Source: Tubulanus polymorphus (taxonomy: Eukaryota; Animalia; Nemertea). From it: a stretch of DNA of 64,000 nt. Positions 22,985-58,935 of the stretch are shown one piece after another. Numbering within the stretch: the stretch's first letter is position 1; each line of letters opens with the position of its first letter. Below the pieces are notes generated by a model, which was given only the letters and a program-made list of their open reading frames with translations, ran no database searches and was not told where the DNA came from. The DNA is taken from positions 3,427,814 to 3,491,813 of the forward strand of contig NC_134034.1 in the NCBI RefSeq assembly GCF_964204645.1, read 5' to 3'. Both the position numbers and the translations under genes were made by a program.

Positions 22985-23085
22985 TTTAACAGCTTGCAAA
23001 ACTAGTGATTGTAAAATCGACAACTGCATTGAGCTATCATCTAACGTAGCGGCTATTACTAATTGGTGGATCCTCACTTGGCACT
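22985..23085 (+). pseudogene. Degenerate copy of exon 4 and the following intron start of the lectin-ShKT gene
   Basis: ACAGCTTGCAAAACTAGTGATTGTAAAATCGACAACTGCATTGAGCTATCATCT..GGTGGATCCTCACTTG aligns with 34371-34482. Confidence 0.65.
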
Positions 23086-25590: not shown

Positions 25591-25689
25591 GTATGGTGGC
25601 TGATAAGATAACAAAACACGAATATGCAAATGAGGGCGACATTACGACAAAACGACAAAACTAAAATAACGCGAGAAAACAATGATTTT

Positions 25690-27220
25690 GATTTTGTCGC
25701 CCGCGACAATTCATTATTTTGGTTTTATCGCCCACGACAATTCATTACTTTGGTTTTATCGCCAGCGACAATGCATTATTTCGGTTTTGTCGCCCGCGAC
25801 AATACTTCTTTTTGGTTTTGTCGCCCGCGACAATTCATTATTTTGGTTTTATATTTTGTTTTTGTCGCCCGCGACAATTTTCTTTTTTGGTTTTGTCGCC
25901 CGCGACAATTCAATATTTTGGTTTTATCGCCTGCGACAATTCAATATTTTGGTTTTATCGCCCGCGATAATTCATTATTTTGGTTTTGTCGCCTGAGAAA
26001 ATTCATTATTTTGGTTTTATCGCCCGCAACAATTCATTATTACGGTTTTATTGCCCGCGACAATTCATTATTTTGGTTTTGTCGCCCGCGACAATTCACC
26101 ATTTTGGTTTTGTCACCCGCGACAATTCATTATTTTGGTTTTTTCGCCCGCGACAATTCATTATTTTGCCAAACTAATGAAAAAAAGAATTGTCGCGGGC
26201 GACAAAACCAAAATATTGAATTGTTGCGGACGACAAAACCAAAAAGAAAATTGTCGCGGGCGACAAAAACAAAGTATAAAACCAAAATAATGAATTGTCG
26301 CGGGCGTCAAAACCAAAAACAAGAATTGTCGCGGGCGACAAAACCAAAATAATGAATTGTCGCTGGAGATAAAACCAAAGCAATGAATTGTCGAGGGCGA
26401 TAAAACCAAAATATTGAATTGTCGCGGGCGACAAAACCAAACTAATGAATTGTCGCGGGCGACAAAACCAAAAAAAGAATTGTCGGGGCGACAAAACAAA
26501 AATAATGAATTGTCTTAATAATGAATTATTTTGGTTTTATCGTCCGCGACAATTCAATATTTTGTTTTTATCGTCCGCGACAATTCATTATTTCGGTTAT
26601 GTCGCTCGAGACAATTCATTATTTTGGTTTTATCGTCCGCGACAATTCATTATTTTGGTTTTGTCGCTCGAGACAATTCATTATTTTAGTTTTATCGCCC
26701 GTGACAATTCATTAGTTTGGATTTATCGCCTGCGACAATTCAATATTTTGGTTTTATCGCCTGCGACAATTCAATATTTTGGTTTTATTTCTCGCGATAA
26801 TTCATTATTTTGGTTTTGTCGCCTGAGAAAATTCATTATTTTGGTTTTATCGCCCAAGACAATTCACCATTTTGGTTTTGTCGCCCGCGACAATTCATTA
26901 GTTTGGTTTTGTCGCCCGCCTCAATTCAATATTTTGGTTTTATCGCCCTCGACAATTCATTGCTTTGGTTTTATCTCCAGCGACAATTCATTATTTTGGT
27001 TTTGTCGCCCGCGACAATTCTTGTTTTTGGTTTTGACGCCCGCGACAATTCATTATTTTGGTTTTATACTTTGTTTTTGTTGCCCGCGACAATTTTTTTT
27101 GGTTTTGTCGCCTGCGACAATTCATTAGTTTGGTTTTGTCGCCCGCGACAATTCAATATTTTGGTTTTATCACCCGCGACAATTCATTAGTTTGGTTTTG
27201 TCGCCCGCGACAATTCTTTT
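25690..27220. repeat. ~30-bp satellite (TTTGGTTTTRTCGCCCGCGACAATTCATTAT)n with an internal inverted block at ~26168-26514
   Basis: Directly visible tandem array that resumes at 28333-28660 after an insertion. Confidence 0.95.
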
Positions 27221-27791
27221 TCAGTCCACTTGGGACTTTAGTCCCAGCGGGCTATTGTGTTCACTTTTCGTCCGTCCGTCCGTCCGTCCATAGACGGAAT
27301 CCAGTTTTTTGGGAAGTTTTGAAGACGCTTTAAGGTCATTGGTTTTAGTATGTGGCCATCAGGGGGCGTTGAATAATACAATAACTTAGTATTGCTATAT
27401 TATATTTGTACCAAGGCATATTTTGTTACCATGATCAATTGCAAAGTTGTAGTTCATGACATCGTCTATGATTGTGGTGAGTTTTAAAGGACATTAGTTA
27501 TTCCATATAGTCACCAGGGGGCGTTGAATAGTAGGAAAGCTTAGTTTTTCCTTATTAGATTGGTACCTAGGCATAGTTTGTTACCATGATCCATTGCAAA
27601 GTTGTAGATCATGACATCGTCTATGATTGTGGTGAGTTTTTAAGGACATTAGTTATTCCATATAGTCACCAGGGGGCGTTGAATAGTAGAATGGCTTAGT
27701 TTTTCCTTATTAGATTGGTACCTAGGCATATTTTGTTACTATGGTCAATTGCAAAGTTGTATTTCATGACATGTACTACGATTGTGGTGAG

Positions 27792-28050
27792 ATAAATGAA
27801 GAAATCCCACACTTCGAATTTGAAATTATACTATCAAATTTATTATTACGAAACCACAACGTTTCGGCTGTTGACTAACAGCCATCATCATCATCATCAT
27901 CATTCCACCTGATGATGGCTGTTAGTCAACAGCCGAAACGTTGTCGTTTCGTAATAATAAATTTGATAGTATAATTTCAAATTCGAAGTGTGGGATTTCT
28001 TCATTCATCTACAGTTTACACGGATTATAGTGTTTATTCGACAACTAACT
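27792..28050 (+). mobile_element. Penelope-like element pLTR fragment with an inverted duplicate, inserted in the HINE
   Basis: Near-perfect palindrome with ~110-bp arms (27790-28010) and a short tail. The target GATTRTGGTGAG is duplicated (27780-27791, 28051-28062). It contains a hammerhead motif. Confidence 0.75.
27905..27946 (+). ncRNA. Minimal type I hammerhead ribozyme motif (Penelope-type)
   Basis: CCAC-CTGATGA-T-GGCTGTT(AGTC)AACAGCC-GAAAC-GTT-GTCG. The inverted copy keeps GTGG, which pairs perfectly with CCAC. The palindromic AACGTT is typical of dimer-dependent helix III. Confidence 0.7.
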
Positions 28051-28332
28051 GATTATGGTGAGTTTTAAGGTCATTGGGTTTTGCATATGGTCACCAGGGG
28101 CGTTGAATAGTAGAATAACTTAGTATTTCCATATTAAATTGGTAACGAGGCATATTTTGTTATCACAATCAATTACAAAATCATAGCTGCTCACATGTTC
28201 TATGATTGTGGTGGGTTTCAAGGTCATTGGTTTTTGTATATGGTCACTAGAGGGCGTTATGTGTTGAAATTGTTAGATTGTTGAGCATTTGAAACCACTT
28301 CCCAAGTGAGCATGGTGTCCCTGGACCCCTAG

Positions 28333-28660
28333 TTTGGTTTTGTCTCCCGCGACAATTCATTATTCTGGTTTTGTCGCACGCAACAATTCAATATTTTGTT
28401 TCTGTCGTCCGCGACAATTCATTATTTTGGTTTTATCGCCGCGACAATTCAATATTTTGGTTTTAACACCCGCGACAATTCATTGTGGTTTTATCGCCCG
28501 CGACAATTCATTATTTTGGTTTTATCGCCCGCGACAATTCATTATTTTGGTTTTATCGCCCGCGACAATTCATTATTTTTGTTTTGTCGCCCGTGACAAT
28601 TCAATATTTTGGTTTTGTCACCCGCGACAATTCATAATTTTGGTTTTGTCCCCGTGGTTT
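28333..28660. repeat. Continuation of the ~30-bp satellite
   Basis: Same unit as 25690-27220. Confidence 0.9.
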
Positions 28661-28779
28661 TGTCGGAACATTAAGTTTTTTGGTCGAACAGTGTGTTAAG
28701 GTCGTTTTGGAAATTTACTCGGTCTGATATATTTTGGATTACTGTGTATGTCATTTGTCAGGACATTAAACAGAAGACG

Positions 28780-31803: not shown

Positions 31804-32493
31804 ATATTTAGAATAGAATATATTTAGATCTATCGATTGCAAATAGAGAAATCATCTCGTTAGAAAATTGAATATATCTTTTAAAACACTTGACAAGTTT
31901 CTGGTAGATCGACGTTTATCTTGAAATGGAAATTATTAACGATCTACATAAAAAGTTTTGTTGATTCTTAGTCGACTTATTATCTCGAAATGGAATCGAT
32001 GATTGATCGTCTGTTCAAAACGTGGTTTCTTCACGCTGCGACATATTTAGAATAGAAAATTGAACATAATTGATACCGAGTAACTCTCTTGCTGAAACTA
32101 AAAGGATTTTTCAGTCATCTACGATGTACTTCTATACAAACTTCGAGGGTTAGTCCAATGTTTGAGGCAAAGTGCCTTTCGCTAAAACTCACGAGTCCAG
32201 TTCTCGAGGTCAACAAGGACACGTTGTCAAACTTTTGTTGAAAATCATTGACAAATTCGATTATGCTTTTTATTAATGTGCACCGTTTGTGAACCATGCC
32301 TCGGTTTGACCCGACGCCCGCCATTGACGGTATAAATATCTTCGATGAACTCGTTATGCCACGGAATTCATTAACGTCTACCACGCCAGGTTGACCCGAC
32401 GCCCGCGTTCAAATCGACGCCATTCATAAATGCCTCAGAAAGTTTCGTTTGTTTATCAGTGAGTCTTTGGCAATGTATCGAGCTAGCTCGAAA

Positions 32494-35400
32494 ATGAAAA
32501 GTATTTTGATGATTTTGGTCGTTACCAGCGTCCGATCGACATCGGCTACAACTTGTAAGTATTCATTTAGTCATAAAAATTTGCAAACGCGTGGTGCTAA
32601 CTTCCAAATGTGTGGAATTCACAATCTAACACCCGTTAACCACCGTGTTTCGTCAATTAGCAAATTATGAATGAATCAATAGATCGTCTACGCAGATATT
32701 ACTTTTTGGAAGACGCTAAATTCTAAAGTTGCGTGCGAAATTTGCCGAATTTCATACCCTGAATGCACCATCCAAATATACATCATCACTTTCTTCCAAT
32801 CCACAGTCAGGCTACATTTTCTAAATCAAAATCTCTAGTCGAGGAATTTGAAATTTTTACACTTTTATTCCGCAGTGTACGATTTGGCGCAAGGACGACA
32901 AGCGGCCCAGAGCAGTACTTTAAGGGACGCCAACCTCGCTATCAGGGGAAAGACGTGGCCCAGAGACATCGATACGTGTAGCGCTACGGAAGATACCGAC
33001 AACGACCCCTGGTGGCAGGTTGATCTGGGCACCGAACGCGAAGTGTCCCGAGTTTTTGTCCAAGGTCACGAATACGACTACTCGAAAAGAAGTGAGTTTT
33101 TGTGCTGCTTATTTCTGGCTTTCTGTCGAGACGATCACGACACAAATTACCCATATCGTGTCAACCCAACCCAACCCAACCCTTCTTAAGCCAACCCAAC
33201 TGAACCGAACCCGTTGATTAGATTCATACAATGCAGACCCAGCCAAGAGTATACAATGCTGGCACCGTTACATTCTTAAACCGCCAAGATGGCCTAACAA
33301 TTTGCAGCTTCTTAAGATAGATTTCAATTTAACATACCATTAACAAAGATTTATATAACCATCGTCCGAAATGATTCTTAACAAAATAAATGTAGCATTC
33401 CTTTTTTCTTTACGTGGGTCGTCTTTCTTTAATTCATATGACTGCTGCGTACTAGTGCGCCATCTAACGGCTTTTGTGGTGATCGCTGACCCGAATGCCG
33501 AAACGTCCGTTTTTGAGGGTCCACCTCCCGCTTCCAAAAGAGGGGTCTGATTCAACGAAAGTAGCTCATGCGTTTTCGTGCTCTTACTTGCTACCAATCT
33601 ATTGGATCTATTCGTCAACATCTAAGCTATTTTCACTCCATTGCTCCTATTGATTTCATGCAACTATAAACGATTTTTTTCAAATCTTGTTTTTATCTAG
33701 GAAAGCTGGAAAACTTCAACATTTTTGTATCGAACCTACCCGCATCTGAGAACGGCCTTCCGACCAAGAGTCGGCTGTGTCACGCGAACACGAACAAACT
33801 GACTAACGAAAAAATGGGAAAGTTCAAGTGCGCTGAACCGATCAAGGGGCGCTACGTAATCATCACATCTCCGGCCAAATTTGGAAAGCTAGAACTATGC
33901 GGAGTTCACGTGTATGAAGGTGAGTTCATGACCAGCTTCCCTCTTAACAAGCTACGCCACCAGGTGGTATTTATCAATGTTACAACCAAATGAATTAGAA
34001 CTGTCGACTTAAAAAAGCGACATTCGACACTTTCACATAAACATTATCGCACATATGCGTATAGATACGGAATTGATCTCTTTCATCGGCGTCGCCACCA
34101 ACGACCCTCGTAGTGACGTACAGCTTCAGATATGGGCGTGGTCACTTGACGCGTGGTAGACCTCGGGACATTTATGTCCGCTAAATGGCAATAGCTGTCT
34201 TACAGTCGTCTCGATAAACAGACGTTAATATGGAGTAGCTTTGGAAATAATTGACAAAATCGAACAAAAAGCGAAAATCGGCCGTAATCTAGAATTCGTT
34301 CTTCGAAAGAAACTAAACCTCAACGAACAGGGCTTTAAGTTTCATTTTTTCTCTTTTTTCCTCTTGACGAACAGAATGCAAAACCGGTGATTGTAAAATC
34401 GACACGTGCATGGACCTGTCATCTCCGAAACGGTAAGCTTACTACATATATACTACTGCAGCACCTGGTGGATCCTCACTTGCCAACGTCAGAGATGGAA
34501 CTTGAGAGGAGCAAAATCCTTACCGACCTCAAATTCGATCGTCCCATTTACTTTTCATGACGCTTTTTCTGTAAAACAAATGCACAATATTGTCGGCAAT
34601 TACTGTTATTGGCGCTGCCGTTATACCATTTTCTTCATATGATTTTTCCTAATGATTTTTGGGAAAACCCTCAGAGATCTTGCTCTCGAATTTTCCTGCC
34701 AGACATTATCCGGATCCTGATGTCTTTGTTAAAGGTATGATAACGTTAAACGAGTTACTTGAAATATGGTAAGTCAAATGTTCTAATGTTCGTTTTTGTA
34801 GATGCGCACTGGCTGCTCTACGGGGATGCCAGGACTATTCATTCTTGAAAAGCTCCGAGCAGTGCAGAGCGACGTGTAAATTGTGCAAGCCAGAATCCGG
34901 AATCCCTAAAGGTTTGTACGCAGCTTGTGGCATCCCGCGAAAACTGTAAATGTGTCTCAAATCCCAGATACACGAAATTATGCTAATGGCAGTAAACCCC
35001 GGGTATTACGTAGCAGTAGGGACCAGAAAACAAATACGTTTGATCTTTATTTATGAAGCGGAGGGGATGCAGGGGGTCAATGGTTTATACCGTGGACGAG
35101 TCTTAGGAGTCTCAGGTGCAAATACCTGCTGAGGGAGGATGCTTACCCTAGACGTAATATAGGGATTCCCGATGATATCAAGTCCAAGTTACTGCTAGCA
35201 AACTTTCTTAACGGTTTTTAAATTTTTTCTAAGACATGTGGTCACAGCCGTAGGAACAGGAAAGAGGACCACAAACGTACACCCCGGCTGCTATGGCGAT
35301 GTATCTTGTAACATTACCTCTCGAACCTTAGGCCTACTAAGTATTAACTCTGTTTGACTCGTAATCGAATAACGAAATGGACATATCTTCATTTGACTGA

Positions 35401-37196
35401 ATTATTAGGACTCTCTTCCGAAAGCGATGTGATTGGAAAAACGATCGAGATGACAGGGCCAGCAACGTCGACTCGTGATGACGCGGCAAGTGAGGTCACG
35501 TGCCCGGAAGGTTATTTCGTCGTCCAGTGTCGTTGTTCCTCGCAAGTTGACTGCGACTCGAACATGGTGATCGGAAACAACACCTGTCGAGTGACTCACA
35601 CACACGGGAGACCAGTAGTGAAGGTACTTATTTGAAATGGAAAATCGTAGATCTTGACAATTGTCTATAGCCGCGATCACATGGAGACGATTTGGCCCGG
35701 GCCAAATTGGCACGGATCAGACTCGGGCCAAATTTGGCCCGTGCCTAATTAGAGAGCGCGGTCACACGCAAACCATTCACTCGCTACTAAACAATGCTCA
35801 AACAAAGCGAAGTTGACCATTTCGGGTGCCAGTTGCAATTCAAACGCAATCATTTGTCTGGTGCTAAAATTTGGCTCGGGCCTGGTCCGACGTTATTGGT
35901 TGGGCCAAATTTGGCCCGGGCCATACAGGCTAGGGCTCATTTGGCACCCGTGTGAACAGTTGTTCCTGGCCAAATTTGGTCCGTGCCAAAAACGCTCGTG
36001 TGATCGCGGCTTAAGAGTTGGACAGACCACAAATTGTCCTAAAGGATGCTGGGTAAAGACAGCAGATTGCCTGAGGGGTGCAAGGTACGGACAGCAAAAT
36101 CATTTGATGGTTGGATTCGAATGCAGCATGTTGTCTGAGGGGTGAAAGGTACATACAACATATCATATCATATCATATTCATTTTCTGCATAATTTGCAT
36201 CAATATATAAAGAATATAAGACACTTACATTACAAAAGCACGATGATTAATTTGTTCTACACACATAAATATATATACTGATGTAAAAATAACAGATGGA
36301 CACGCACGCACGCACGCGCACACACGCATCATACAGTTCAAGATTGATAATTCTCTCCGAAATTCTTTATCGGAAGCAAAGGTTTTAGTTCATCCGCGAA
36401 CAGCTGAAAAAATAGCTGACGCGTCAGCGCAGTCATTAATGTACAATATAAAGAGTATTGAGCACAGGATCACTCCTTGCGGGACTCCACGTGTCATCTC
36501 CATTCTGTCAAATGCTTTATCGCCATACTTTAGGCACTGAAAGCGGTTACAAAGATAATTCTTGAACCATAGGTTAGCTAACATATTGTCTGAGTTTGAA
36601 GTGTATGGACAGCTGATTTACTAACTGTGAGGCCGTGGGGTACAGCTCGTATTTTGGAATACAGCTCGTATTTTATTTTTCCAGCCGATCGCCACCTGTC
36701 AATCATTGTACACTTATCGCGTTGTCAGAACGACTACGTTTTCCAGAACACCGAAGATTTCTTGTCCCGAAGGTTTGGTCGTCAGATCCTGCGGCTTATA
36801 CAACCCGTAAGTGTCCATAGCCTTCCTCATTAGGTAACTGCCAACTCGCTAAATCGCTCGGTAGAACTTTACTCATAATTTGATCGGAAAATGTATTCCT
36901 TTTCCCTTATTCGAATGGGTTCTTCATTACGGGTCCCAACGCTACCGAGTTCCTGATTCAGAGCATTCTCGGCAGCGTGGCATTTTACACTAACTCGTAG
37001 GATATCGCGTTTCGAATTCTACTCAATAACGACCTTTTTATTTTGAATGGTTCATATTTTCAGTTGGGCGTACAACGACAAATCAATGAGAGCAAAGAAA
37101 TCCGGCGTGAATACGTGTGTCGCATCTTCTAGATGTACCGCCCGGCTGGGTTGTATGATACAGGCGATTTGCGTCGATCCAAGAATAATTCAGTAG
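32494..37196 (+). CDS. Secreted mosaic protein: signal peptide - non-canonical F-type lectin domain - ShKT domain - two PCSK9-C/resistin-like Cys modules; 8 exons, 377 aa
   Basis: join(32494..32554,32876..33091,33701..33919,34375..34432,34802..34911,35409..35623,36685..36806,37064..37196); all GT-AG and phase-compatible, 1134 nt (alternative ATG at 32473). FTL motifs: LAQGRQAAQSST, PWWQVDLG, GRYVII, LELCGVHVY. ShKT: CMDLSSPKRC-ALAALRG-C-QDYSFLKSSEQ-CRATCKLC. C-terminal modules: SEVTCPEGYFVVQCRC..NTCRV..PIATC and ISCPEGLVVRSC..NTCVA..QAIC. Confidence 0.82.
35669..36011. mobile_element. MITE (Harbinger-like termini), copy 2, in intron 6 of the lectin gene
   Basis: Same TIRs and body as 10152-10441, opposite orientation, ~50 bp longer. 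Confidence 0.8.
36380..36600 (-). mobile_element. LINE RT fragment
   Basis: 'WFKNYLCNRFQ...GVPQGVILCSILFILYINDC' is the CR1/L2 RT core motif. Confidence 0.75.
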
Positions 37197-38017
37197 TAGT
37201 AGTAGTGTTGACAAGCTAAAATAAATCGTCAATCATAAATACATTGAAATGAAAATCTACATAAATCTGATAGGTGTTACTTGTTATTTGGTCCACCGTC
37301 TATTTGATCCTTGTGCATGATTAGTCGGTGGGACTCGAACCTGGATGGGATCGAGGACTGCCATGAAGCCTTTGTACGGGCTCGGGCGACCATCGTGATC
37401 CCCGACCGAGGTCCACGTTTCCTGGGAACCAATTAAGCATAGAGATCAATGGCTGCATTTGGCTGCCACTTCGTTGTAACCAGGAAGCAGTGCTTGATAA
37501 TCTCCAAACGAAGATGTGGGGAATGTTTAGATCGACTTATATTTACTAATGATTAGTGTTTTTTTTTAGATACGAGCAACTAATGCAAAGAAGCTTTATC
37601 AGGTAGATGAGCTCACGAAGCTACTAAGCATTTGTAGAAGAGTTTGTATCTTAACCTATGAAGTACTATCTATCTCAATACGATAGATAGGCCTACTACT
37701 GATGCAACACGGCTCCTCTCGCATCATGAAAACAAATTCATCACCAATATTTTTTTCACTTGGTACCATATGGTGTCTAAGACTATTCATATGTTGTTAG
37801 ACTGGCTACAGAACTAAAAGATGGTCTGTGTCACGTTTAAAGTCTAAGTTGACGTCCAAAGTCGAAGACTGGGAACTGTTCACACGGTACCACTCATCGT
37901 CTCTGCTGTGATCAAGTATTCCGACGTTACGTATTAAAGACCAAAAATATTCCATTTCCAAAAAGGCCATATCGTCAAGAAAAGGTCAAACAAATTTTTT
38001 TGGCTTTTGGAATCATC

Positions 38018-38225: not shown

Positions 38226-39214
38226 TTGCTTTATCGTTTATGGCTGCGTCAATTCATGTTTCTAAACTTTCTACTGGTGGTGCCCTCTGTGAACGTTAAG
38301 TAGACACCAGTGGCGACCTATAAAAATTCTATCTATCCCATTTAAAAATTCTACATATGAACGTGGAAATCTACAGAATGATCGAATAAACATTGGGTTT
38401 AAAACAACGAATCATCTACGATCATCTACGTGGAACCCGATCTCATCGATACAAACATTAAGACAACACTTTCAAACACTCTTAGTTTCACTTTGAATGA
38501 AGTCTAAGTCAAATTGGAGGAATAAACTGCAAATCTCAGGAAAGGCTGGTATAGTAAAACAAACTAAACGCTCATAAAATCTTAGTTTAGATTTGGGTTT
38601 CTCAGATGTTAGTAAAACCATTGGAGGATTGCCACAGGCTTATTTTACAATTCTAGCACTCTTCGAAAGAATCGAGAAAAGAATTACGTATTCTATTAAA
38701 ACTTAACATAGCATCAACGATTCATATCTTAACGTTTAGGCGGAGGAAGACAAATTCAATACATATTTACGCGCTGAAATATATATATAGGCCTTCACTT
38801 AATATATATTTCAAATCTAACGTTTCTTAAGTGATGGCTTTAATCTAAAACTGCACGCATCACCGAATGGCAAATTTCGTCTGGGTCGATGAAATTAGAT
38901 TAACATACCGAGTAAAATGCGTCTGCTCTAGTCCCGAACGCCTCCAGCATCGAAGGCAATTACGGTTGAAGAAAGGTTCATGGCGGGCAAGTTTAGAAAC
39001 TTTGACATCGCTGCTAATTCTGTGCAGCTTACGATGCTCGGCAACGATGAGTAATGATTAAACGTTTTCCTACGAATACATACATATTATGCAGCTCCAG
39101 AATAAAACTAGATAAATTCACGACCATGGAGCTAAAAGACAAACATAAATGGGACACGCATTTCTATAGGTATTGTCTTAATTGACGTTCGCTGTTTGTT
39201 ACGAGTTGTTCGAT

Positions 39215-42200
39215 ATGACACACCTAAAAAATCTGTTTGTTTTCATGGTGGCTACAAGCCACGTACGCGTCGCACACGCTGATCGCACGGGTTCAACGGA
39301 GGAATCGTCTGTGGCGGTCAGTTCGTCTTGTAACAACACTTGGTACCCCGTCGATTCTACGTCCGGCTACATCGTTTCGCCGAATTATCCGTCGTTAACG
39401 CGCGGTGTCGAATGTCGTTGGCTCGTCAACGGGTCGTTAACGGGAGTCTTTCACGTACGAGTCTACCACGACATCGAGCCGTTAATTTTCTGCGAGGATA
39501 ACTACCTTCTCGTCGGCGGATCTGGTCACAAATTCTGCGGCGAAGGAGAACACGAAATGCGCCGTAACGATTCGATCTCGTTTTTGTTTAGAAGTAACGT
39601 CGATGGTGCGCGAGGAAGTCGGGTTTATATCGTTTATCGTTATGGACGAAGCCGTTTAAATTTAAGTCACAACTGCAAAGAAATATATCATTTACGCATC
39701 AGCAAGTTACAAACATCGAAAGGGTATAAATTTTATATTAACCAATTACTCTGTCAACTCTATTTAGAATGGATTGGACTTACGGATAGTTTTGCAATGA
39801 ATCTGACATTTATAGCTGTTAGCTTTAAGTTAATCCGCATTTCAGAATCGGCTTCAGTTAAAATTTATGACGGCTGGAACACCAGCAGTGAACCTATCGG
39901 CAATATACCTGAACAAACTGGACTGTCATCAGTATCATTGTACACAAAAACCAACAAGGCAGTCATCAAAGGTTTGCCGTATCAGTCCCTATTTCGTACG
40001 GAATTACTAGTGCAAATTTACAAAATGTCCGATTGGAACATCTCTAAACCGTTGATACAGATTTCTGATAAGGATTCTGGAGTGCTCATTCCTGATGACA
40101 ACAGTTTACACGTAATAACTCGATCAAAACGATTACACTGCTGGTCTATCACGGTGCAGGTGTTACAGTACGTCGTCTTCAACTGGACACATGATTTCGT
40201 CACATCCGGTGACGTCATTGGTGTGTATAAACTAGAAGGGTTACGCGTTGTAGGAACTGATATTCTACTCGGTTACAACTACCTGGAACCGCTAAGTGTC
40301 AAATCCGACGGCTTTCTCGTCATACTGTGCGTTTTACTATCGGATCAACTGGCGACGTCTGAAATTGAAATATTCTATAAAATGGAATCGATTTCGATAG
40401 CGGATGTCAGGTTTTCAACGCGGCAAGTAAGTGCAAACAAGATAGTGATGAACTTTTCGACATAAAAAATGTATACATTTTCTAACGACTTTTGTTATTT
40501 TTCTCTATAGTTTCAGAGATCTTTCGACCCCTTTCTCCTATCCGAGACGATATACAATCTGACGATCACCTATGTCGTGACTACAATAAAGTTCAAGTCG
40601 AAAATCGATATTTTTGATGAAGGTTTACGCATGTTGATTTTATCGGAGAATTGCGAGCGAGCCGGATTTTACATACACGACGGAGGCACTTTGACGGCCA
40701 GACGCTACGGACCGTATTGTCCTAGTTCAAATAGATACGACCGCAACGTCGTCAGTTTGATTACATCAGGTGGCGCGGTTACTATAGTAGCGTACGCTTA
40801 CAAATGGGCTGGACAGTTGATGGATACTAGTAAATTTGAAGGATATCTCAGATTTCAACCGACGGATTGTACGGGGTACGTACTAAAGGAAGGAGAACGT
40901 CAGATTAATATGACGTCACACTGCGTCGTCATTTCACCTAACAACCGACGCCTGCCCTTAAAGTACATTTACATATTGTCAGAACACGAATACCAAATCG
41001 ACCGATGTTTTCCCGAGAAGCAGTGGAGAGCTCCATGCAGCAGGTTCATAGCAGCTTTAACTCGTCAGTTTCTCAATAACAGTCTCGTATTGAACACTGT
41101 GACTTTACGCATGGACAACAAGTTCTGGCAATATCCTCTTATAGTTAAACTACGTCGTAAATGCCAACGTTTGAAGAGGGCTTTGGATAATCGTCAAGGA
41201 TTGATGTTACGGGATAAAGATAAATGTGGAATTATACAGTCACCGAACTACCCGGGATCTGCGGACCGACTTACCCAATCGTATATCTATCAATTTCGGA
41301 ACAGAGCATGGGGACACGTAATTGACAAACACAAATATTACAGATTCGTCATCAAATACATCGAAAAGACACCGTGCTTAAAGACATCTCCACGAGACAA
41401 GGATCCGATCATTTTTACTCAATCTATGCATAGTTTACACGAAAATTGGCAGCTTGACCAGAAGATATGTAGAATTAATTATCCATTACTCGGGAGCGTA
41501 TTTCACAGTTTGCACAAAAGTGGTTTCTCCATCGTAGCAAAAGACCACCCTCCGACATTCCAGATACAATATACCTCAGAAGAAGAATTAGCAATCGAAG
41601 GGAATCACTGTAAATCGGGATTATATGACCCCGGTTATGCATCTTGCGTGAAATACATCAAACACGAACGTCTGAATTGGGAGAATGCTGAATTGTACTG
41701 TAGACAGAAATACGGGGGACATCTACTGAGCATCAACACGGAACAGGAGATGATCGCTATCAAAAGATTATTCGCTACAAAACTTCTACGACTGGCGTAT
41801 ACTCAAAAAACGCTAACGATGATGATTGGATTAAAACTGCAGGTAAATTTGATTTTCGAAGCTGCTACAGTTTGAAGTTAAAGTAAATTTGTAATCCACG
41901 ATTTTCTATTCGACGAATATAGAAAGCCTTTTCAATTATAAACAATCTACCATATACCGATAGTATTGCTGATTTTCATCGCCGTTATAAGGGATGCTAC
42001 CATTAACTTCCACGGTGGTTGCGTACCTTATTGTTCGTTTCTTTTTTGCACAGCCAAATACCGATGGTAACTACACGTGGACTGATGGAAAACCATTGAG
42101 CTACACAGAGTGGTACAAACCTACGAATAACGAAACCATACCAGAAGTTATTCAGGGATTGATATCTCCTCTACGAAAACAACCGATCAATGACGTCAAT

Positions 42201-45200
42201 ATGCCGTGTACGGCGATGATACTTAACAATCCACGAGGATCGGCGAACTGGGTTCGATTCCCGTGTTTAATCGAAGAGGTGCACACCACTTTTATTTGTG
42301 AGTCGGATCGCTTTGATAATAGGCAGGACGACAATTCAACTAAAACCAAAAATGAAAGAAAAAACCATAAAATGCTAGATGCCATTACGTTCAACTCAAT
42401 CTGTACTCGAGGTTGGTTAGGTATAGCCGGACGATGTTATCAAATACTGACGGACTGGAATCGATTTCGTGGATTAGACGTAAAGACAGCGACACGGATG
42501 TGTCGCGCTATCAATGGTGAAATAGCTGTGAACCGATCTCTCAAGAAAATTGAAATAGAGGATTTGATAACTACGTTCAACTATCAACACCAATATGGCG
42601 CAGTGTTAGTAAAGGATGGAACGAACAGATCTAGAGCGATACAACCTTCGTTAACCAGGGATGAAATCACATATATTCATACATTAATTTGGTCCGTTTC
42701 AACCCTTGACAACACAACAGAAATAGGGGTTGTGCATTCTGTGTTGTGTTCCACCAATGTAACTGGCGAAGAGTTATCTTCTATAAGCGATTGCAAAATC
42801 TGGCAGTTTCGATGTAACGACGAAAGATGTATCAGCGACCATCGCGTATGTGATACCAGAAACGACTGTCAACACGGTGAAGATGAACTAAATTGTACCG
42901 ATATTAATTTGCACAGTCAGTTCCGTTGTAGAAATGAGCTGGTAATATCAATGAGTAGTTTATGTGACTTCATACCGGATTGTCCTGATGGTTCTGATGA
43001 AAACTCGTGTGTTCATCCCCCGTGTCTGCCTGAACAACATCGCTGTATCAGTGGCCAATGTGTCGCTAGGTCTAACAGATGTGACGGAGTTGGAAATTGT
43101 TATGACGGCTCAGATGAGATAGGTTGCACTGTCCAACTGTGTCACGGGTTCCTCTGTAACAGTGGAGACTGTATCAGTTCTCAATTGTATCAGGACGGTG
43201 TCGTGGATTGCAGTGGAAGCCTTGAAGAAGACGAAGTGGTAACATCAGCTAATGTTACAGTGAATCCTAAAGTTCAGTGCAATAATGAGAACCAATGTAC
43301 AACTAATTTCACAAACCTCTGTGCGGAATCTGATGAACAAAGATGTTCTTTCAATTCCCCGCATTGCTATTCTAGACGTCACAGATGTGTTTTGGAAAGA
43401 ATGTCATTTGGCTACCCAGTTTGTAGAAATCTTGAGCACGTATCGAAATGCGAAGATTTTGAATGTCCAGCAGGTACTGTTAAATGTCCAGCATCGTACT
43501 GTATACCAATCAGACAGGTGTGCGATGGTCAATCGGATTGTCCCCATTCAGAAGATGAGCAAAACTGCGAGACATTTTCATGTCCTGGAATGTTTAAATG
43601 TGGACACGAAAATCGATGTATTCCACAAACTGAAGTGTGTGATAGTGTTATGCATTGTAAAAACACTACCGACGACGAGGCTTTCTGTAACGTCACGTGT
43701 CCAAGTCATTGTACATGTCAAGGTCATTCTGTGGACTGTAGGAATGTTGGTCTCACCGATATTACTGACCTCATCACAGCATCAACTCGAATTCTAATCT
43801 TGTCGAATAACCGAATTCTTTTCAACGTGTCGACGTTTTCTTCCTTCGTTTATCTTCGTACGCTCAACATCTCCTTCAATGGATTGTCGTATGTTTTGCC
43901 GAAGTCGTTTTCAAACCTGCATAATCTAAACACCTTAGACCTCACATATAATATCATAACAGCGTTATCGACAGATGCATTTATTGGCTTGTATAGTTTG
44001 AAGGAACTATTCATAACTGGGAATCCGATACGATACCTAGAAGAAGGAAGCTTTCATGGTTTAATTTCGTTAACAATTTTCGATCTTCACGGACTGCAAA
44101 TTTCGGTACTCGGCGCAAATGTATTCAAAGGCCTGTCCTCAGTGATTTCATTGGATATCAACAGCAACAGAATCTACTACATATCGAAGTATGCTTTCTC
44201 TGGTTTAAGCGAACTTTCGTATCTTGATTTAGCCAATAATTCAAATTATATTTCCACAGAAAGTCACATTTTCGATAACTTGACATCATTAGTCTCTTTG
44301 AAGTCTGATTTCTACAAATTTTGCTGCATGGCTCCGAATGTCGACCAGTGCTTTCCCGAAGCAGATCAATTTTCCACCTGCGCTGAGCTCATAGGTAACA
44401 CAGTCCTCAGAGCGATCATTTGGGTAATAGCTGCATTCAGCTTCTTCGCGAACAGTATTGTCATTCTATTTCGCATTCAAGTTTCATCATCTGAAACACG
44501 AAACAGATCGTCTGACATCCTCATCATCAACCTGGCTGCTTGTGATTTCATGATGTCAATCTATCTGTTCTTGATCGCAGGTGCCGATTACGTTTATAAG
44601 GGAGTTTATTTCCTTAATTCTGAAATTTGGACTGACAGTTTGCTGTGTCGTCTTGCCGGAATTTGCGTTACAATCTCTTGCGAAGGCTCTTTGGCTTTCC
44701 TGCTCGTCATAACACGTCATCGATACTCAAACATCGTCAATCCATTCTCTGAAAGTATGTTCACATCTCCAAAACACGTCACTAAGATTTGCTGTATTTG
44801 CTGGCTCATGCTGAGTATAATCTCTTTGCTACCGCTGTCACAATCGCCGTACTTCGGTACGAAGTTCTATGGCACTACCGGAGTCTGTTTACCTATGAAC
44901 TTGCTGACTATTGACGTCAAAGCCTGGCACTATTCATTGGCCATTTTTGCCGTATCCACCTCGGTCATACTAGCTACGATAATAACGACGTATGCACAGA
45001 TGTACAGACTCGTATCTGGAAGCAGGTCCGGCTCGGGTAGAATTGACCCTACCGAATTAGTTTTGGCACGCAGGAGTTTGGTGATTAATTCGTGTAATCT
45101 ATTTTGTTGGCTGCCGATAATTACCGTTCAGTTTTGCGCGGTATTACGGGTAGAAATACCGAATCAGGTGGCGGCTTGGCTGGCGGTTCTTTTCTTGCCG

Positions 45201-45290
45201 ATCAACTCGTCCCTCAATCCCATTCTTTACACCATACTGACTATCGATTTAAAATCCATACAAGCAAAATACAAACGTCGTCAACGCTGA
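39215..45290 (+). CDS. GRL101-like LDLa-LRR GPCR with N-terminal CUB-like and C-type lectin domains, paralog A; 3 exons, ~1926 aa
   Basis: join(39215..40426,40511..41842,42054..45290), all phase 0. Signal peptide; CUB 'SGYIVSPNYP..CRWLV..KFCG' and further CUB-like repeats; CTLD 'NWENAELYCRQKYGGHLLSI..WTDGKPLSYTEW'; ~7 LDLa; LRRs; hinge 'DQFSTCAELI'; 7TM ending 'NSSLNPILY'. Confidence 0.9.
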
Positions 45291-45887: not shown

Positions 45888-47218
45888 CTACACGGATGAA
45901 AACATTGGTTTAAACCCGCTTGTAGCATTATTCAGGCGATATGATTCTACACTTTTATCAGTTAACTGTCCCATAGCTTGACCGAGAGAGTCAGAGACTT
46001 TACCCTGCATCACACAAGCATGTTTGGTGTAATGCTTTGCCATGGACTGAAGCTTCCAACCAATATAAGAAGTCACCTCTTTAGATGTATGGCCCAAAGA
46101 AGCCAACATAACGGAGCATCCAACCCTGAAACTATGCGGGGTCTCACCGTCATACATACAAATTTCTTTTAGGTAAGTTTTCAAACGGCTTCCCACCGCA
46201 TTCGAGTCGAGTCCTTTATTAACGATAGCGCCCTCTTTATTCGTTATCCGGAATAAGTAACCCCCTCCAAGGTCAACTCCAAGCGCCTTTACAACAGCAA
46301 AATACCTTTCAATCGCCAAAACCGGGCACAGAACCGGGTTGTTAAAACGAGTAACTACGGATGTCAAAACCGAACCCTCCCGCAGTGTTTTCCCGAACGT
46401 TAGATTTAAAATGATTACCCTTCCATCGTCACTCTGAGAGATCCCATCTGTCAAAAACCGACCTAAGTCTGCCGCCCTATGTCCTGTTAGAAAATCAAGT
46501 TTGAAGAAAGCCTGGTCCCTTGCTAAAATATACTCCGTTACCGCGGGTAAATCTGGGACAGCCAAGCGTTTATCAATACAGAGAATCATTTTCCGTCAAT
46601 TTGCTAAGGTACATTGGGACGGCTTGTTTAGGGGTGATCCGATTGCTCCTTCTCAGTCACTCTCAGGTATTGTTTTACCTCTTCTGAAATGGTAGGATTC
46701 CCAGTTCCGCGCTCGGGATGCCAACAGCCAATTTTACCAATCGAGTTAAATATTGCCCTTATCTGACCCAGATAGGAATCGACCGTTCCGGCTGCTAGTC
46801 TTTTGGGGCATAAACAACCACCGGTCCTTGGTGAGGCCTTCGAGACTGCTTTCCAACCTCGTACCGGACAGGTTAAAGAGTGTACTACTGTTTTACCCCG
46901 AGCATCCCTGAATACCATGAACCTACAGATATCCCTAGGTGATGCCGTCAACAAGGATCTCGATGGGCGCAGTGACCTGAGGAACAAGACCAAATCTTCT
47001 TCCAGTTTTGACTTCTTTCGGCCATAAACAGAGTTGCGCTCACTCTCTGACATAGATTTTAACCGGGCATCCAAATCTTTTAATGGTAAGGCTAGCAATG
47101 TACCGTTCTCGCCATCCGCATTGCTTAACTCTGAACCACAATTGTAGCAGAAATTTGAGTGCTGTCGCGAGCGATGTCCACAGTCCGCACAATGGTTCTC
47201 GTGATGCAGAGACAGATC
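45888..47218 (-). pseudogene. Retrotransposon tyrosine recombinase: Zn ribbon + ALOG domain + catalytic domain, with two frameshifts at ~46595 and ~46640
   Basis: Zn ribbon CADC..FCYNCG. ALOG 'RDARGKTVVH..C..CLCPKRLAAGTVDSYLGQIRAIF..GNP..VKQYLR'. Catalytic residues GHRAADL, FGKT, HSFR, YIGW, KHY. The linker ITPKQAVPMYLSKL lies in a third frame. Confidence 0.88.
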
Positions 47219-47405
47219 CTGTAGAATATGACAGATCTTAAAAGAACCATAATAAACGAGGTATATCAGAAAAGACAAAGCGTTTATTAACGTAAAAGCA
47301 GAGTTATGCATCCGGATTTTACCGTGCATAGATCAGAGTAGAAAATAAAGACCACCGTTACGCAACACCATGTTATCGCTCAGGAAAACATGTCAATTTA
47401 ATCTT

Positions 47406-49586
47406 TCAATCTAATCTATCAAAATCTATCCTATAAACAAACAGATCCCACGGGATGCCTACTGTATCCTCCACAAAACCTTTTTTAGTCGGATATTTCA
47501 AAACACCCACATCTCCCTTTTTGCCAAGCAGGCGACGTTTGGATGCATGAGAGGTTACCAAAGGCCACCAGAATGGCCTCGGAAAGATTTCTGGAATGAC
47601 GATAGATGCTTCTTTGACTGCGTCTGCCAAGAATCGTAAAACCGCCGGTATCTTAGAAATTGGCGGAAACACATATGGATTAACCTCGTCGCATAGATTT
47701 TGTGCGAACAGATCTACACCACTAGAATCAGTAGATGGCGTTGGCGTAAAATGTCGTAGTGGAGAGCCTGACAAATCTACCATTACGTTCGAATCAAGGG
47801 CCATCAAATCAACCGAGTGTCCGTTTTCACCCCCATATTCACGTTGCACGAGCTGCCATATACGCGGAGATAACATACATTCCGATTTTCGCAAAATTCG
47901 CGAGGGAGCGTCTGCTAGATTCTCTTTTGACGGTACATAATGCAATTTCAACAACACATTTTGTTCTGCTGTTAGTTCAAACAAAAGCTTAATTGCTTCT
48001 GACAGATCATGTGATTTGGAACCTTCACCAACCCATGCCGCAATCATAGTTTTATTATCTACAAAAGCGTCTACTCTAATGTCTCTAATTTTATCAGAAA
48101 CCACCATTAAAACGTTTTTAAGTGCCAGGGTTTCCTTTATTACAATGGGTTTTTGTACCAGCTCCTGTGGCCAATAATCGGAGGGCTCAAACCTCTGCTC
48201 ACCAATCGTGACTATCCCACCCCATCTATAAGAGGATGCGTCCGTATACATCTGAATTCTGACATGCCACTCTTGGCGCCACCTTACCACCCTTGGCAAA
48301 CATTCAATTATCTTCCAGTACTCTATCTCAGTTCTGAGATTGCCCTCAACCCTAATGAGTCTCGAGTTTCTGAATGCCTTAGAAATAGCTAAGTTTGACT
48401 CCCTTGTATAAAGCTTCGCAGCTGGTACAACCAACGAGAAGGATATGATCTTACCCACAAACCGCTGAATCGTTTTAATGTTAACGAATTCGGACGATAA
48501 AATATTGTCCCTTAAAATGGCAAATTTCACCACCTTATCATTTGGGATCTCAAAACGTTCCTCTATAGTGTTAACAAATAAGCCTAAATGCTTTAATAAC
48601 TGACACGGTTCCAGGACGCATTTATGGAGGCCTAGAAAATACCCTAGTCTTGTTAAAACTTGGGCCGTCATATATAGAGCTAACCTAGCCTTTGTGATGG
48701 ATTCTAAACCCCTAGCCGAGGAACTTAAAAGCTCCCCATTTAAACGGTCATCAATGTATTGAGTTATCTGTACTCCTAGGTCTCGAAGGTAACCCGTTGC
48801 AACCAAGCCAGTTTTCTGGTATATATAGACCGAGGCCTTAAAACCAAAAGGAATAACGGTGTAAACGTAATACCAACCTTTCCAGCTGATTCCCAAATAC
48901 ACCTCACTTCCCGGTGTTACCCTGATGTGGTCGTAACCACTTTTATCATCGACAGAGGTCATAAACGCGCTTTTATGTAGCATGCGAGGTACGTTTACCA
49001 AAGTTTCCAAATGGAAAGGCGAGTCCCGAATCCATAGATTTAGAAATCGTTCGTCGTGGCACATTCTGGGTTTCGTGGGTTCAACCGTCAAGGGCATAAC
49101 TAAATGCGGGGGTGAATCGACCCCAACCTTTCCCCAGACCTTGAGTGATCCATTAGCCACCCGACCTTTTAATGTTGTAGAAATGAAATCTTCAAATTGT
49201 TCGCAGTTTCCAGCATTCGGGAACACCGTTTTTGGGGGCGCATTACAATCATACGTCTTGCCTTTTAACTGACCCTTAAACCTCTTAAAGAAATCTGGGA
49301 TATGAACACCATCTCGCACCCAAGATAATATCGTGTCTGACAACGGATCCTCTGACTGCCGTAGAATAAATTCCCATTCCTCCAGATGGCGACTCAGTTC
49401 ACCTGCGACGAAATTCTCCGGGTCCCTGTGGGGCAGGTCAAAAATTGTCAAATTGTTATACTTGTCCGCCGATTTCGAAACGGTCTCGGCTGAGACGACC
49501 TCAGGCAATGGTAACTGGACGGATGAACCTCTAGCACCAACCCAAAACACGTCTTTACACACAGGTATCTTCAACGGAACAAAATC
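47406..49586 (-). CDS. Retrotransposon pol: reverse transcriptase - RNase H - DNA adenine methyltransferase-like domain
   Basis: RT motifs DDKSGYDH, IPFGF, QYIDDRL; RNase H TDASSYRWGG, KET, FVDN, NLADAPSR; MT-like 'SVDLMALDSN..VDLFAQ..PYVFPP'. The ORF starts at a splice acceptor (49586) and has no ATG until inside RT. Confidence 0.92.
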   Translation of the reverse strand, partial: DFVPLKIPVCKDVFWVGARGSSVQLPLPEVVSAETVSKSADKYNNLTIFDLPHRDPENFVAGELSRHLEEWEFILRQSEDPLSDTILSWVRDGVHIPDFFKRFKGQLKGKTYDCNAPPKTVFPNAGNCEQFEDFISTTLKGRVANGSLKVWGKVGVDSPPHLVMPLTVEPTKPRMCHDERFLNLWIRDSPFHLETLVNVPRMLHKSAFMTSVDDKSGYDHIRVTPGSEVYLGISWKGWYYVYTVIPFGFKASVYIYQKTGLVATGYLRDLGVQITQYIDDRLNGELLSSSARGLESITKARLALYMTAQVLTRLGYFLGLHKCVLEPCQLLKHLGLFVNTIEERFEIPNDKVVKFAILRDNILSSEFVNIKTIQRFVGKIISFSLVVPAAKLYTRESNLAISKAFRNSRLIRVEGNLRTEIEYWKIIECLPRVVRWRQEWHVRIQMYTDASSYRWGGIVTIGEQRFEPSDYWPQELVQKPIVIKETLALKNVLMVVSDKIRDIRVDAFVDNKTMIAAWVGEGSKSHDLSEAIKLLFELTAEQNVLLKLHYVPSKENLADAPSRILRKSECMLSPRIWQLVQREYGGENGHSVDLMALDSNVMVDLSGSPLRHFTPTPSTDSSGVDLFAQNLCDEVNPYVFPPISKIPAVLRFLADAVKEASIVIPEIFPRPFWWPLVTSHASKRRLLGKKGDVGVLKYPTKKGFVEDTVGIPWDLFVYRIDFDRLD

Positions 49587-49825
49587 CTGAAAAGACACTA
49601 AGGTCCATCAGTCCAGCCCTGTTGCCAGCACGACATAAGCCGTGACAACAGACTTAGATAGCCTGTGACAACAAAGCCAACCGATCACAAACAACCGATA
49701 ACAAAATGAATTATCCAACATATGATCAATTTAATGGAGAGAAAATAACCTTGTTTAACATCTTTAACAACACAATATAACATTACGTATCATCCAAAAC
49801 TAAATTCAATCAGGTTCTAACTCAT

Positions 49826-50368
49826 TTAGACAACCTCACTTTCAGTCTTCGTTACCACTTGTGGTTGCTTATTCTCAGGACAGTCGCGAACAAAATGACT
49901 CTCTTTGCGGCATAAGAAACAATTCCCCCTGGAACTTCTCCCTGCTCTCCTTGTACCGTAACCTCGGCGCCCAACACATCCCCTGCCTACACCCGACCCA
50001 CCCCAATAGCCGTAAGTTGGGTAATAATTGTTTGTGTGCGGCTTTTTAACCCATTTTGCCTCCACTGATGCCACTTTTTCATCATCCGGGGAGCCAATCA
50101 AACGCCTACACAAAGCAGGTAAGTCTGGAGAATCGATATTTCTCTTGATACTTTTCAGCACAGAATCAAAATACCCTTTTTTCGGATCTGTGGTTTCAGC
50201 TGCCACCTCTACCAAGCCTTCCATACAACAATAGAAGGAAGTATGGATCAAAGAAAGAGCCCGGCCTTTGAAGCGCTGCCCTCACCTGCATCAGAGCGCT
50301 CTCTACTGAACGAGCTGGATGTGTAACCTTCTTCTCGAGTTCCTCCAAACGCTTTAACAATTTTTGTC
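49826..50368 (-). CDS. Retrotransposon gag, main exon (zinc knuckle), with probable small indels
   Basis: Coiled-coil 'LLKRLEELEKK', 'FDPYFLL/MEGLVEVAAET' across a frameshift, an RG-rich stretch and CCHC 'CFLCRKESHFVRDC'. Confidence 0.75.
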
Positions 50369-50843
50369 CTGAAACACACGAGATAAATACAAATATAGAC
50401 TAATCAGCATGACTTCGCAGTAAATAGTTTAAAAGATCGCCATGATTTCGGTTAACGAACAATATATAGTCAAATCTATCATCCTAAATGTTTCATGCTT
50501 CTGCTTCATACCATTACCTACATCTTAATGGGTTATCTTTACATTCCATCTTGCATCTTACATTTTCAGAAGCTGTCTTTTAAAAAACCTAATCTCTATA
50601 AACTTTCTCCTCCAGTAAAGGAAACGAAAAATCCTCTAACTTAACCAAAACAGATTCCCATTCTGTACCCACTAAATCCTGGTATGTGCAAGGCCTAGAG
50701 CAATAAACCTTAAACGCACAGAGCTACACATGTTTTAAACAAATGTCTATTAATTTCCCAATAAATCTACCCAGTCCAGGCCTACCGACCCAGCCCGGGG
50801 GCTACAAATACAGATATAAAACTGAGAAAATAAAAACACTCAC

Positions 50844-51236
50844 CGGTTCAGAAACCCCATCTGGGGTTACCGCACCACTCTCCGCACCGACCGTGCTTGT
50901 ACTAGGTGCGGGCACAGACTTCCTTTTCTTTGGTACCTGAAGGAGCTTGTTCGCGTTCTCGTTAGCGAAAATTATCAAGTGGTGCGCTAGCAGCGGACCT
51001 TCCGTCTCCTCCCAGTTCACCAGCGTTAACAGATCACTCATCTTTTTACCAGTCATAGAAAATACCGCATCATCCACATACTTCCTCGGTGCCGCTTCTA
51101 GTGGCTTAAGCCTTTCGAACCTAGCGAAGGCTGTAGGCCGATCTACGTTCAGATCTAACCCTCTTAATTTCAATAACATGGGGATGATGTCCACCGTTTT
51201 CAAACCGTCTGACAATTTTAAAACCACCGGTTCCAT
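50844..51236 (-). CDS. Retrotransposon leader coding exon (131 aa, ATG plus NLS-like PKKRK)
   Basis: Acceptor TTTCAG|AG-ATG at 51238 and phase-0 donor CCG|GTGAGT at 50844. Confidence 0.65.
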
Positions 51237-51924
51237 CTCTGAAACAGATAAGCGAAAAGAACATCAAAATTACTACCGCATCGTACCAGGAATAAAATTT
51301 AAAAGTATTAGCAAACTGATCCTAACAACCGTCGACAAAGTTTAACCAAATATATACATGTGACCAGACCAGAAAAACGTTAAATTTTCGGCCACATGCC
51401 GAAATTATTTCTCTAGCCACCATCTTAAATTAAACAAGAACTAATACGACAGTAATACACTAATAAAAACTCACCTTAAATCCTCTGTACGATACACAGT
51501 CAAACAAGTCTAATAATACCACCGAGCTCCAAAACTGTCCTCAAATCTGAAAAGCGATTTGACTAACAGGACTTGATGCTAACCCAACACTACCGCTAAC
51601 TACAAAACGAGACCAAGGACTAGGTAAAACGTCACCAGATTGCCTTTACACGCCCAGTAAGATTAAACCGAATTTTGAAAAGCCAATGAAATCCCACAAA
51701 TGAATTCCAAATCCAGACCTTGGAAATGCGCCTATGAATGAAATAAATCTAGCGAAATGCACGCACTGTGACTTACAGTATTTACCCACGTCCCAATAAA
51801 GGCAAAAGCAATCACGCATGTAGCACTGTAACCTAAATGTCATTGACGGTCAAAATGTACCAAAGTACCCTAGCACTTCAAACCTGAACGAGAATTTTGC
51901 CTCAATAAAATCACTATCAATCCA

Positions 51925-58800: not shown

Positions 58801-58935
58801 AGGTGCAGTAGCCGAGTGGTTTAAGCCGCCGGTCACTGGTCTCGTCAAACCAGGGTTTATTGGTTCAAACCCTGGTGGCGGCAGAGTTTCTTGGCCGAAG
58901 GTTCTTCTCTGGTCTCCCCCCCCCCAAAAAAAAAT
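58800..58935 (+). mobile_element. tRNA-derived SINE head
   Basis: A box TAGCCGAGTGG (~58809) and B box GGTTCAAACCC (~58862). It does not fold into a complete cloverleaf. Confidence 0.65.

What the first reader, a model, noticed from the sequence alone, without database searches (positions are those of the whole stretch)
32494..37196. Unusual secreted architecture: F-type lectin + ShKT + two PCSK9-C/resistin-like modules
Eight phase-compatible exons, mostly invisible in the ORF track, join a lectin fold, a six-Cys ShK-toxin-like domain and two Cys-rich modules. The module pattern (vtCpeG..v..C...C....iA.C) resembles the PCSK9 C-terminal/resistin fold, an assignment made by eye. I know of no described protein with this combination. 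It is a candidate mucus, defence or venom component.
Basis: partly seen in the sequence, partly recalled or inferred. Interest (0 to 1): 0.7.

Follow-up and report, generated by a model that had tools for sequence, protein, structure and literature searches.

The report
Fused lectin–resistin-fold gene in ribbon worm
In a toxic ribbon worm, eight intact exons likely encode one secreted protein stitched together from two separate gene families of the same animal (a lectin-fold plus ShK-like front half and a pair of resistin/PCSK9-fold modules at the back), probably a mucus defence protein, though no RNA yet shows the halves are spliced together.

Summary
The eight exons are real: all GT-AG, phase-compatible, 377 codons, poly(A) signal 23 nt past the stop. 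The window is from the nemertean Tubulanus polymorphus; RefSeq joins exons 1-6 but stops at 303 aa, missing exons 7-8. The gene looks like a chimera. Exons 1-5 match a paralogue (77%) that is F-type fold + ShK + ShK. Exons 6-8 match, collinearly (46-70%), stand-alone secreted two-module proteins of the same worm, with a relative in Lingula. Exon 6 begins at Gly10 of their signal peptide, whose hydrophobic remainder has turned polar. Module 1 has the PCSK9-C/resistin fold (top 4 of 48,161 chains; Z 5.9-7.0, next 4.2); module 2 matches by family profile only. No other protein with the combination was found (0 of 27 module relatives), but those searches are leaky. No RNA holder was available; junction 5-6 rests on a gene model and inference. 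Verdict: real new domain combination of a familiar kind; function likely mucus defence.

The parts
32331..32336 (+). TATAAA, possible TATA box
   Evidence: sequence; function not tested
32494..32554 (+). Exon 1, predicted signal peptide (alternative in-frame ATG at 32473 used by RefSeq)
   Evidence: 11 of 20 identical to P0002
32876..33091 (+). Exon 2, first half of F-type-lectin-fold domain; calcium and fucose motifs degenerate
   Evidence: Pfam F5_F8_type_C_2 above cut-off; FBP32 3cqo E 4e-9; motif test
33701..33919 (+). Exon 3, second half of the F-type-fold domain
   Evidence: aligns to FBP32; 57 of 72 identical to P0002
34375..34432 (+). Exon 4, two extra Cys plus first Cys of the ShK-like unit
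34802..34911 (+). Exon 5, rest of the six-Cys ShK-like unit (spacing 8-7-11-3-2), ends in phase 1
   Evidence: Pfam ShK E 0.035, below cut-off; 32 of 36 identical to P0002, where Pfam finds two ShK stretches
34912..35408 (+). Intron 5, inferred fusion point between the two parent families (phase 1)
   Evidence: P0002 diverges here; no signal-peptide first exon or poly(A) signal found inside; exon-6 acceptor has a weak pyrimidine tract
35409..35623 (+). Exon 6, polar remnant of a parent signal peptide, then PCSK9-C/resistin-fold module 1 (5 of its 6 Cys)
35664..36016 (.). High-copy MITE inside intron 6 (not part of the protein)
   Evidence: 18-nt terminal inverted repeat; depth to 82,296 against about 31
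36685..36806 (+). Exon 7, last Cys of module 1 and first half of module 2
37064..37196 (+). Exon 8, second half of module 2 and stop
37220..37225 (+). AATAAA poly(A) signal
   Evidence: retained in the decayed copy at 1791-1611

Best explanation
This is an intact eight-exon reading frame of the ribbon worm Tubulanus polymorphus that likely arose by fusing the first five exons of an F-type-fold/ShK gene to the last three exons of a small secreted two-module resistin/PCSK9-fold gene, and would make a secreted, disulfide-rich binding protein of mucus or epithelium. Shown: exon chain, both parent families in the same genome, fold of module 1, loss of the canonical fucose, calcium and Lys-Tyr motifs. 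Inferred: the join at phase-1 intron 5 replaced the parent's terminal second ShK exon; the second parent's half signal peptide decayed into a linker. Inferred by analogy only: the C-terminal modules (module 2 is basic, 12 K/R against 3 D/E) bind anionic membranes or assemble between chains into beta-prisms, as resistin-like molecule beta heads and apicomplexan perforin beta domains do; the F-type-fold domain binds a non-fucose ligand; the ShK unit is a structural knot rather than a potassium-channel blocker. Net role: a tether or recognition protein in surface defence.
For: Exon chain; RefSeq joins exons 1-6 including junction 5-6. P0002 77% identical over 226 aa up to the end of exon 5, then a second ShK domain. 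P0003 and P0004, T. polymorphus, same scaffold length as P0001/P0002, are signal peptide + two modules and match exons 6, 7, 8 in order. Exon 6 starts opposite Gly10 of both; mean hydropathy of the next 8 residues 0.39 against 1.86 and 1.79. Without exons 7-8 the chain has 17 Cys, with them 24. No AATAAA/ATTAAA in introns 5 or 6. Second locus conserves exons 7-8 (2 of 3 listed exon-7 codon changes silent). Fold; module-2 profile scores 12 of 12 PCSK9_C-positive proteins above all 240 shuffles, hhalign 96%, and hits a perforin C-terminal domain (9xda, E 1.7e-4). PCSK9-superfamily proteins were found in the mucus proteome of another nemertean (PMC9132205 section 13).
Against: No transcript evidence for any junction. 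RefSeq omits exons 7-8 and its support for junction 5-6 is unknown. Exon-6 acceptor is weak (failed my pyrimidine filter). Intron positions of the parent genes could not be seen (no genome held), so the phase argument is inferred from protein alignment. Module-1 model is single-sequence, pLDDT 62, Z under 8, Foldseek E 0.5; Pfam hits are below cut-off. Module 2 itself was not folded and resembles module 1 only weakly (71-96 of 5000 shuffles reach the score). Tissue, ligand and oligomer state are untested; decayed copies of exons 4 and 8 in the window show that this family also leaves dead fragments.
Confidence: 0.55

Rival explanations
1. A venom or defensive toxin component in which the ShK-like unit blocks potassium channels and the other domains target or deliver it.
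For: Nemerteans are toxic and ShK-, galactose-binding-like- and PCSK9-superfamily proteins are listed as putative toxins in Antarctonemertes valida; the paralogue's second ShK domain has an adjacent Lys-Tyr and resembles 2mcr and the MMP23 domain 2k72.
Against: The unit in this gene has no adjacent basic-aromatic pair, is internal, and it is the dyad-bearing domain of the paralogue that is absent here; dyad-less ShK domains occur in non-toxin mucus proteins (PMC7333891 passages); no dibasic site flanks the unit.
Confidence: 0.15
2. Two tandem genes or gene remnants (an F-type/ShK gene and a two-module gene) that a gene predictor and the first reader joined because phases happen to fit; or an unexpressed chimeric pseudogene.
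For: No RNA support; each half has stand-alone relatives; exon 5 could read on to a stop at 34949; orphan exon copies nearby.
Against: No hydrophobic first exon with a good phase-1 donor and no poly(A) signal in intron 5; signal remnant has gone polar; all frames and cysteines intact after 30-54% divergence from the parents.
Confidence: 0.2
3. The RefSeq 303-aa form (one incomplete module, ending in intron 6) is the true or main product.
For: It is the only form in the protein collection.
Against: Leaves module 1 with five Cys and without the terminal Cys that 6 of 6 two-module relatives keep; no poly(A) signal in intron 6; exons 7-8 conserved.
Confidence: 0.1

Closest known systems
F-type lectins (fucolectins, e.g. 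MsaFBP32, PDB 3cqo) and mosaic FTLD proteins
   Same: Sequence and predicted fold of exons 2-3; secretion; mosaic combination with other domains is common in the family (PMC5712786 passages)
   Different: HX24RXDX4R/K and h2DGx motifs absent; partner domains differ from those named in the passages read
ShKT/SXC domain proteins (nemertean CAP-ShK proteins; limpet P-vulgata_14; MMP23 domain)
   Same: Six-Cys pattern ending C-x3-C-x2-C inside a secreted multidomain protein
   Different: Follows an F-type fold, not a CAP domain (PMC4986456 passages); two extra Cys in front; no Lys-Tyr
PCSK9 C-terminal (V) domain, resistin/RELM-beta head, apicomplexan perforin beta domain
   Same: Six-stranded beta-sandwich module with four core Cys (PMC6294395 passages)
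   Different: Two modules per chain instead of three (PCSK9, APC-beta) or one (resistin); no subtilisin, MACPF or coiled-coil part; six Cys per module, not resistin's ten
T. polymorphus LOC141912068 (P0002) and LOC141912243 / LOC141912102 (P0003, P0004); Lingula LOC106159076 (P0028)
   Same: P0002 shares exons 1-5; the others share exons 6-8
   Different: Each has only one half; all are annotated as uncharacterized

Membership tests
F-type lectin | F-type jelly-roll domain of about 140 aa | tested here: met
   Pfam F5_F8_type_C_2 41.7 bits (cut-off 27.8), F5_F8_type_C 31.4 (28.2); FBP32 E 4e-9; Atlas structure rows
F-type lectin | Fucose-binding motif HX24RXDX4(R/K) | tested here: not met
   No match in P0001 or P0002 with relaxed spacing; His position is Ala in the FBP32 alignment; motif from PMC5712786
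F-type lectin | Calcium motif h2DGx | tested here: not met
   Asp replaced by Arg in both paralogues
F-type lectin | Fucose binding in assay | not testable with these tools
   needs glycan array
ShKT domain | Six-Cys pattern ending C-x3-C-x2-C | tested here: met
   spacing 8-7-11-3-2
ShKT domain | Pfam ShK above cut-off | tested here: inconclusive
   15.1 bits against 20.9 on exon 5 alone, not reported on P0001; two stretches in P0002, 27.7 bits
ShK-type potassium-channel toxin | Lys-Tyr functional dyad | tested here: not met
   no adjacent K/R-Y/F in residues 173-303 of P0001; a spatial dyad was not modelled (model unreliable there)
PCSK9-C/resistin fold | Six-stranded disulfide-linked beta-sandwich, module 1 | tested here: met
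   six strands; PCSK9 Z 7.0, rmsd 2.6, 66 aligned; resistin Z 5.9, rmsd 2.9, 61 aligned; next 4.2; top 21 rows
PCSK9-C/resistin fold | Same fold, module 2 | tested here: inconclusive
   not folded; family profile 12 of 12 above 240 shuffles and hhalign 96%; no Pfam hit on exons 7 or 8 to these families
Resistin/RELM hormone family | Ten head cysteines and N-terminal coiled-coil tail | tested here: not met
   six Cys per module, no helical tail; definition from PMC13647132 passages
PCSK9 orthologue | Subtilisin domain plus three C-terminal modules | tested here: not met
   no peptidase domain; two modules
PCSK9-C/resistin fold | Three-fold beta-prism assembly | not tested

The most novel reading that the evidence does not exclude
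The stand-alone two-module proteins are an undescribed lophotrochozoan counterpart of resistin-like molecule beta, membrane-active effectors of mucus, and this gene is an expressed, lineage-specific chimera that bolted that effector onto a retargeted lectin-fold/ShK head, with half a dead signal peptide left as the linker: a new defence protein caught with both parents still in the genome.
Probability: 0.2. Interest if true: 0.75.

Novelty: new variant of a known kind. Interest (0 to 1): 0.45.

Why it matters
It is a clean candidate case of a new secreted protein made by exon shuffling, with both parent families and a fossil signal-peptide half still readable, in a phylum whose secretions are poorly known. 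It also exposes a family of small secreted resistin/PCSK9-fold proteins in nemerteans and brachiopods that Pfam does not call at its cut-offs and that may explain the 'PCSK9 superfamily' entries in nemertean mucus. New domain mixes in invertebrate secreted proteins are common, so without expression or function the interest is moderate.

Tried and rejected
RNA support: no RNA holder listed; the one guessed-RNA run laid 0 contigs at 88% and 80%; no evidence either way. No whole genome held. Metagenome scan with exon 6: 234 pattern matches, none confirmed. Word-index search with exon 8: 0 of 2 candidates; the same tool with exon 6 missed P0003/P0004 although in range, so its blanks are weak. Single-sequence fold of P0001: pLDDT 37, Foldseek meaningless. 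PDB sequence search with exon 6: nothing significant. Dumpy_DPY hit on exon 8 (E 0.1) and the LDLa-like hit (E 3.5) rejected as cysteine-driven noise. Searched the window for a second ShK exon or a parent-type first exon: none. Trimer prediction of module 1 could not be run (tool unavailable). Earlier findings of the scan: four look-ups, all empty. Supplement S4 of PMC9132205, which would give the architecture of the mucus PCSK9-superfamily proteins, was cut from the held copy.

Full report
Observation. Donors match 7-9 of 9 consensus positions. A search with exon 6 returned one protein of 25 candidates, XP_074659551.1 of the palaeonemertean Tubulanus polymorphus, 100% identical. That RefSeq model (P0001, 303 aa) uses exons 1-6, starts at an in-frame ATG 21 nt upstream, and ends by reading through the exon-6 donor. 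No RNA holder was listed, so no junction is shown at RNA level.

Are exons 7-8 real? Yes. A DNA contig from another locus matches the 3' part of exon 7 with its donor (52 of 62 nt) and 25 nt of exon 8 without a difference, 342 against 334 nt apart, the intron diverged; reading its loose ends by eye, the frame stays open and the stop falls at the same codon. More decisively, HMMER over 1.84 billion representatives with exon 6 gave 27 hits; the top two are T. polymorphus proteins of 160 and 163 aa, signal peptide plus two modules, with the same scaffold length as P0001. They match exon 6 (47/67, 44/71), exon 7 (18/39, 28/40) and exon 8 (18/37, 16/35) in order. Exon 7 supplies the last cysteine of module 1, invariant in 6 of 6 two-module proteins aligned; the RefSeq form has 17 Cys, the eight-exon form 24. 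Intron 6 has no AATAAA or ATTAAA.

Origin. A search with P0001 found 2 of 657 candidates: itself and P0002 (LOC141912068, 250 aa, same scaffold length), 175/226 identical up to the end of exon 5, after which P0002 has a second ShK domain. So exons 1-5 belong to one family and exons 6-8 to another. Exon 6 begins exactly opposite Gly10 of P0003 and P0004, in the middle of their signal peptides; the next eight residues average 0.39 in hydropathy against 1.86 and 1.79. Intron 5 holds no poly(A) signal, no match to the parents' N-termini, and none of 20 ATG-to-phase-1-GT candidates in 34433-35408 reaches 7 of 9 donor positions. I infer a fusion through phase-1 introns in which the two-module exons replaced the terminal ShK exon and the half signal peptide became a linker. 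The parents' intron positions could not be checked. Decayed copies of exon 4 and exon 8 elsewhere in the window show local duplication of both halves.

Domains. Exons 2-3: F5/8-type C above Pfam cut-offs and best PDB hit the fucolectin FBP32, but neither the fucose motif nor the calcium motif defined in PMC5712786 (passages) is present in P0001 or P0002. Exons 4-5: six-Cys unit, spacing 8-7-11-3-2, below Pfam's ShK cut-off alone, no Lys-Tyr pair. Module 1: single-sequence model, pLDDT 62, six strands; of 48,161 chains the top four are PCSK9 C-terminal (Z 7.0, 6.8) and resistin/RELM-beta (5.9, 5.9), next 4.2; Foldseek ranks resistin first at E 0.5; Pfam Resistin E 0.001 and PCSK9_C3 E 0.022, both under cut-off; 13 of 27 relatives pass a PCSK9_C cut-off. 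Z under 8 is middling, but three methods agree. Module 2 was not folded; directly against module 1 it is weak (71 and 96 of 5000 shuffles reach the score), but a profile from six relatives scores 12 of 12 PCSK9_C-positive proteins (11.7-26.1 bits; P0019 left out as itself a two-module repeat) above 240 shuffles (best 5.2), hhalign 96%; those 12 were selected by similarity to module 1, which biases the test. The family profile also hits a perforin C-terminal domain, which PMC6294395 (passages) groups with the PCSK9 domain as a beta-prism with four conserved Cys per repeat.

How common? 0 of 27 module relatives carry an F5/8 or ShK domain; none of the 10 feature rows or 10 structure rows from the Atlas shows the combination. 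These are leaky: P0001 itself is hidden behind a 50% cluster representative, and the word-index tool missed close paralogues. Paper searches: F-type lectin + ShK + domain architecture gave one review (listing only); resistin + PCSK9 + invertebrate + module, none; PCSK9 + mucus + invertebrate + toxin, none. Stand-alone two-module proteins occur also on another T. polymorphus scaffold and in Lingula.

Function. In Antarctonemertes valida, PCSK9-superfamily proteins were body-wall-enriched and in the mucus proteome, galactose-binding-like proteins in the proboscis, ShK proteins unassigned (PMC9132205, section 13 read; supplement S4 not visible); fucolectin homologues were up in proboscis. RELM-beta's C-terminal head binds anionic lipids and permeabilises bacteria in mucus (PMC13647132 passages); the perforin beta domain inserts into membranes; resistin trimers resemble the PCSK9 domain (PMC6945527 passages). 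Dyad-less ShK domains occur in non-toxin mucus proteins (PMC7333891 passages); published nemertean ShK proteins follow CAP domains (PMC4986456, PMC10674772, PMC6410017 passages); PMC9415933 has no ShK, resistin or fucolectin mention. The best reading is a secreted recognition or tether protein of mucus defence; a channel toxin is less likely. All functional steps are analogy.

Verdict. Observation confirmed, interpretation partly supported, new variant of a known kind (exon-shuffled secreted mosaic). Confidence in the chimeric eight-exon gene about 0.7, in the mucus-defence role about 0.5 given expression; interest 0.45.

Noticed in passing
window 22988-23042 (+): Orphan copy of exon 4 with its acceptor (46 of 55 nt identical) and scraps of intron 4; no other exon nearby.
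   Followed up: partly
window 1791-1611 (-): Decayed copy of the 3' half of exon 8 and 3' UTR, 66% over 204 columns, with in-frame stops but the poly(A) signal intact.
   Followed up: partly
window 35664-36016 and 10148-10445: Two copies of a very high-copy MITE with 18-19 nt terminal inverted repeats.
   Followed up: partly
window 18374-21436 (+): Toll-like receptor (LRR + TIR) about 11 kb upstream.
   Followed up: partly
window 39182-45290 (+) and 59898-63197 (-): Two large LDLa-LRR-7TM receptor genes with very long exons; N-terminal CUB- and C-type-lectin-like parts judged by eye only.
   Followed up: no
window 45888-51263 (-): Retroelement with reverse transcriptase and tyrosine recombinase ORFs, DIRS-like by recalled organisation.
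   Followed up: no
window 2060-3112, 6946-8124, 55224-56251, 58194-58811: Several single-exon rhodopsin-type GPCR ORFs; first two hit 7tm_1/Srw, the last two judged by eye and apparently interrupted.
   Followed up: no
P0005, P0019: Unnamed ENA proteins made of tandem repeats of the same two-module unit (1251 and 545 aa), so the pair is a duplication unit.
   Followed up: no
window 25612-28700: Long tandem satellite that produces spurious ORFs on both strands.
   Followed up: no
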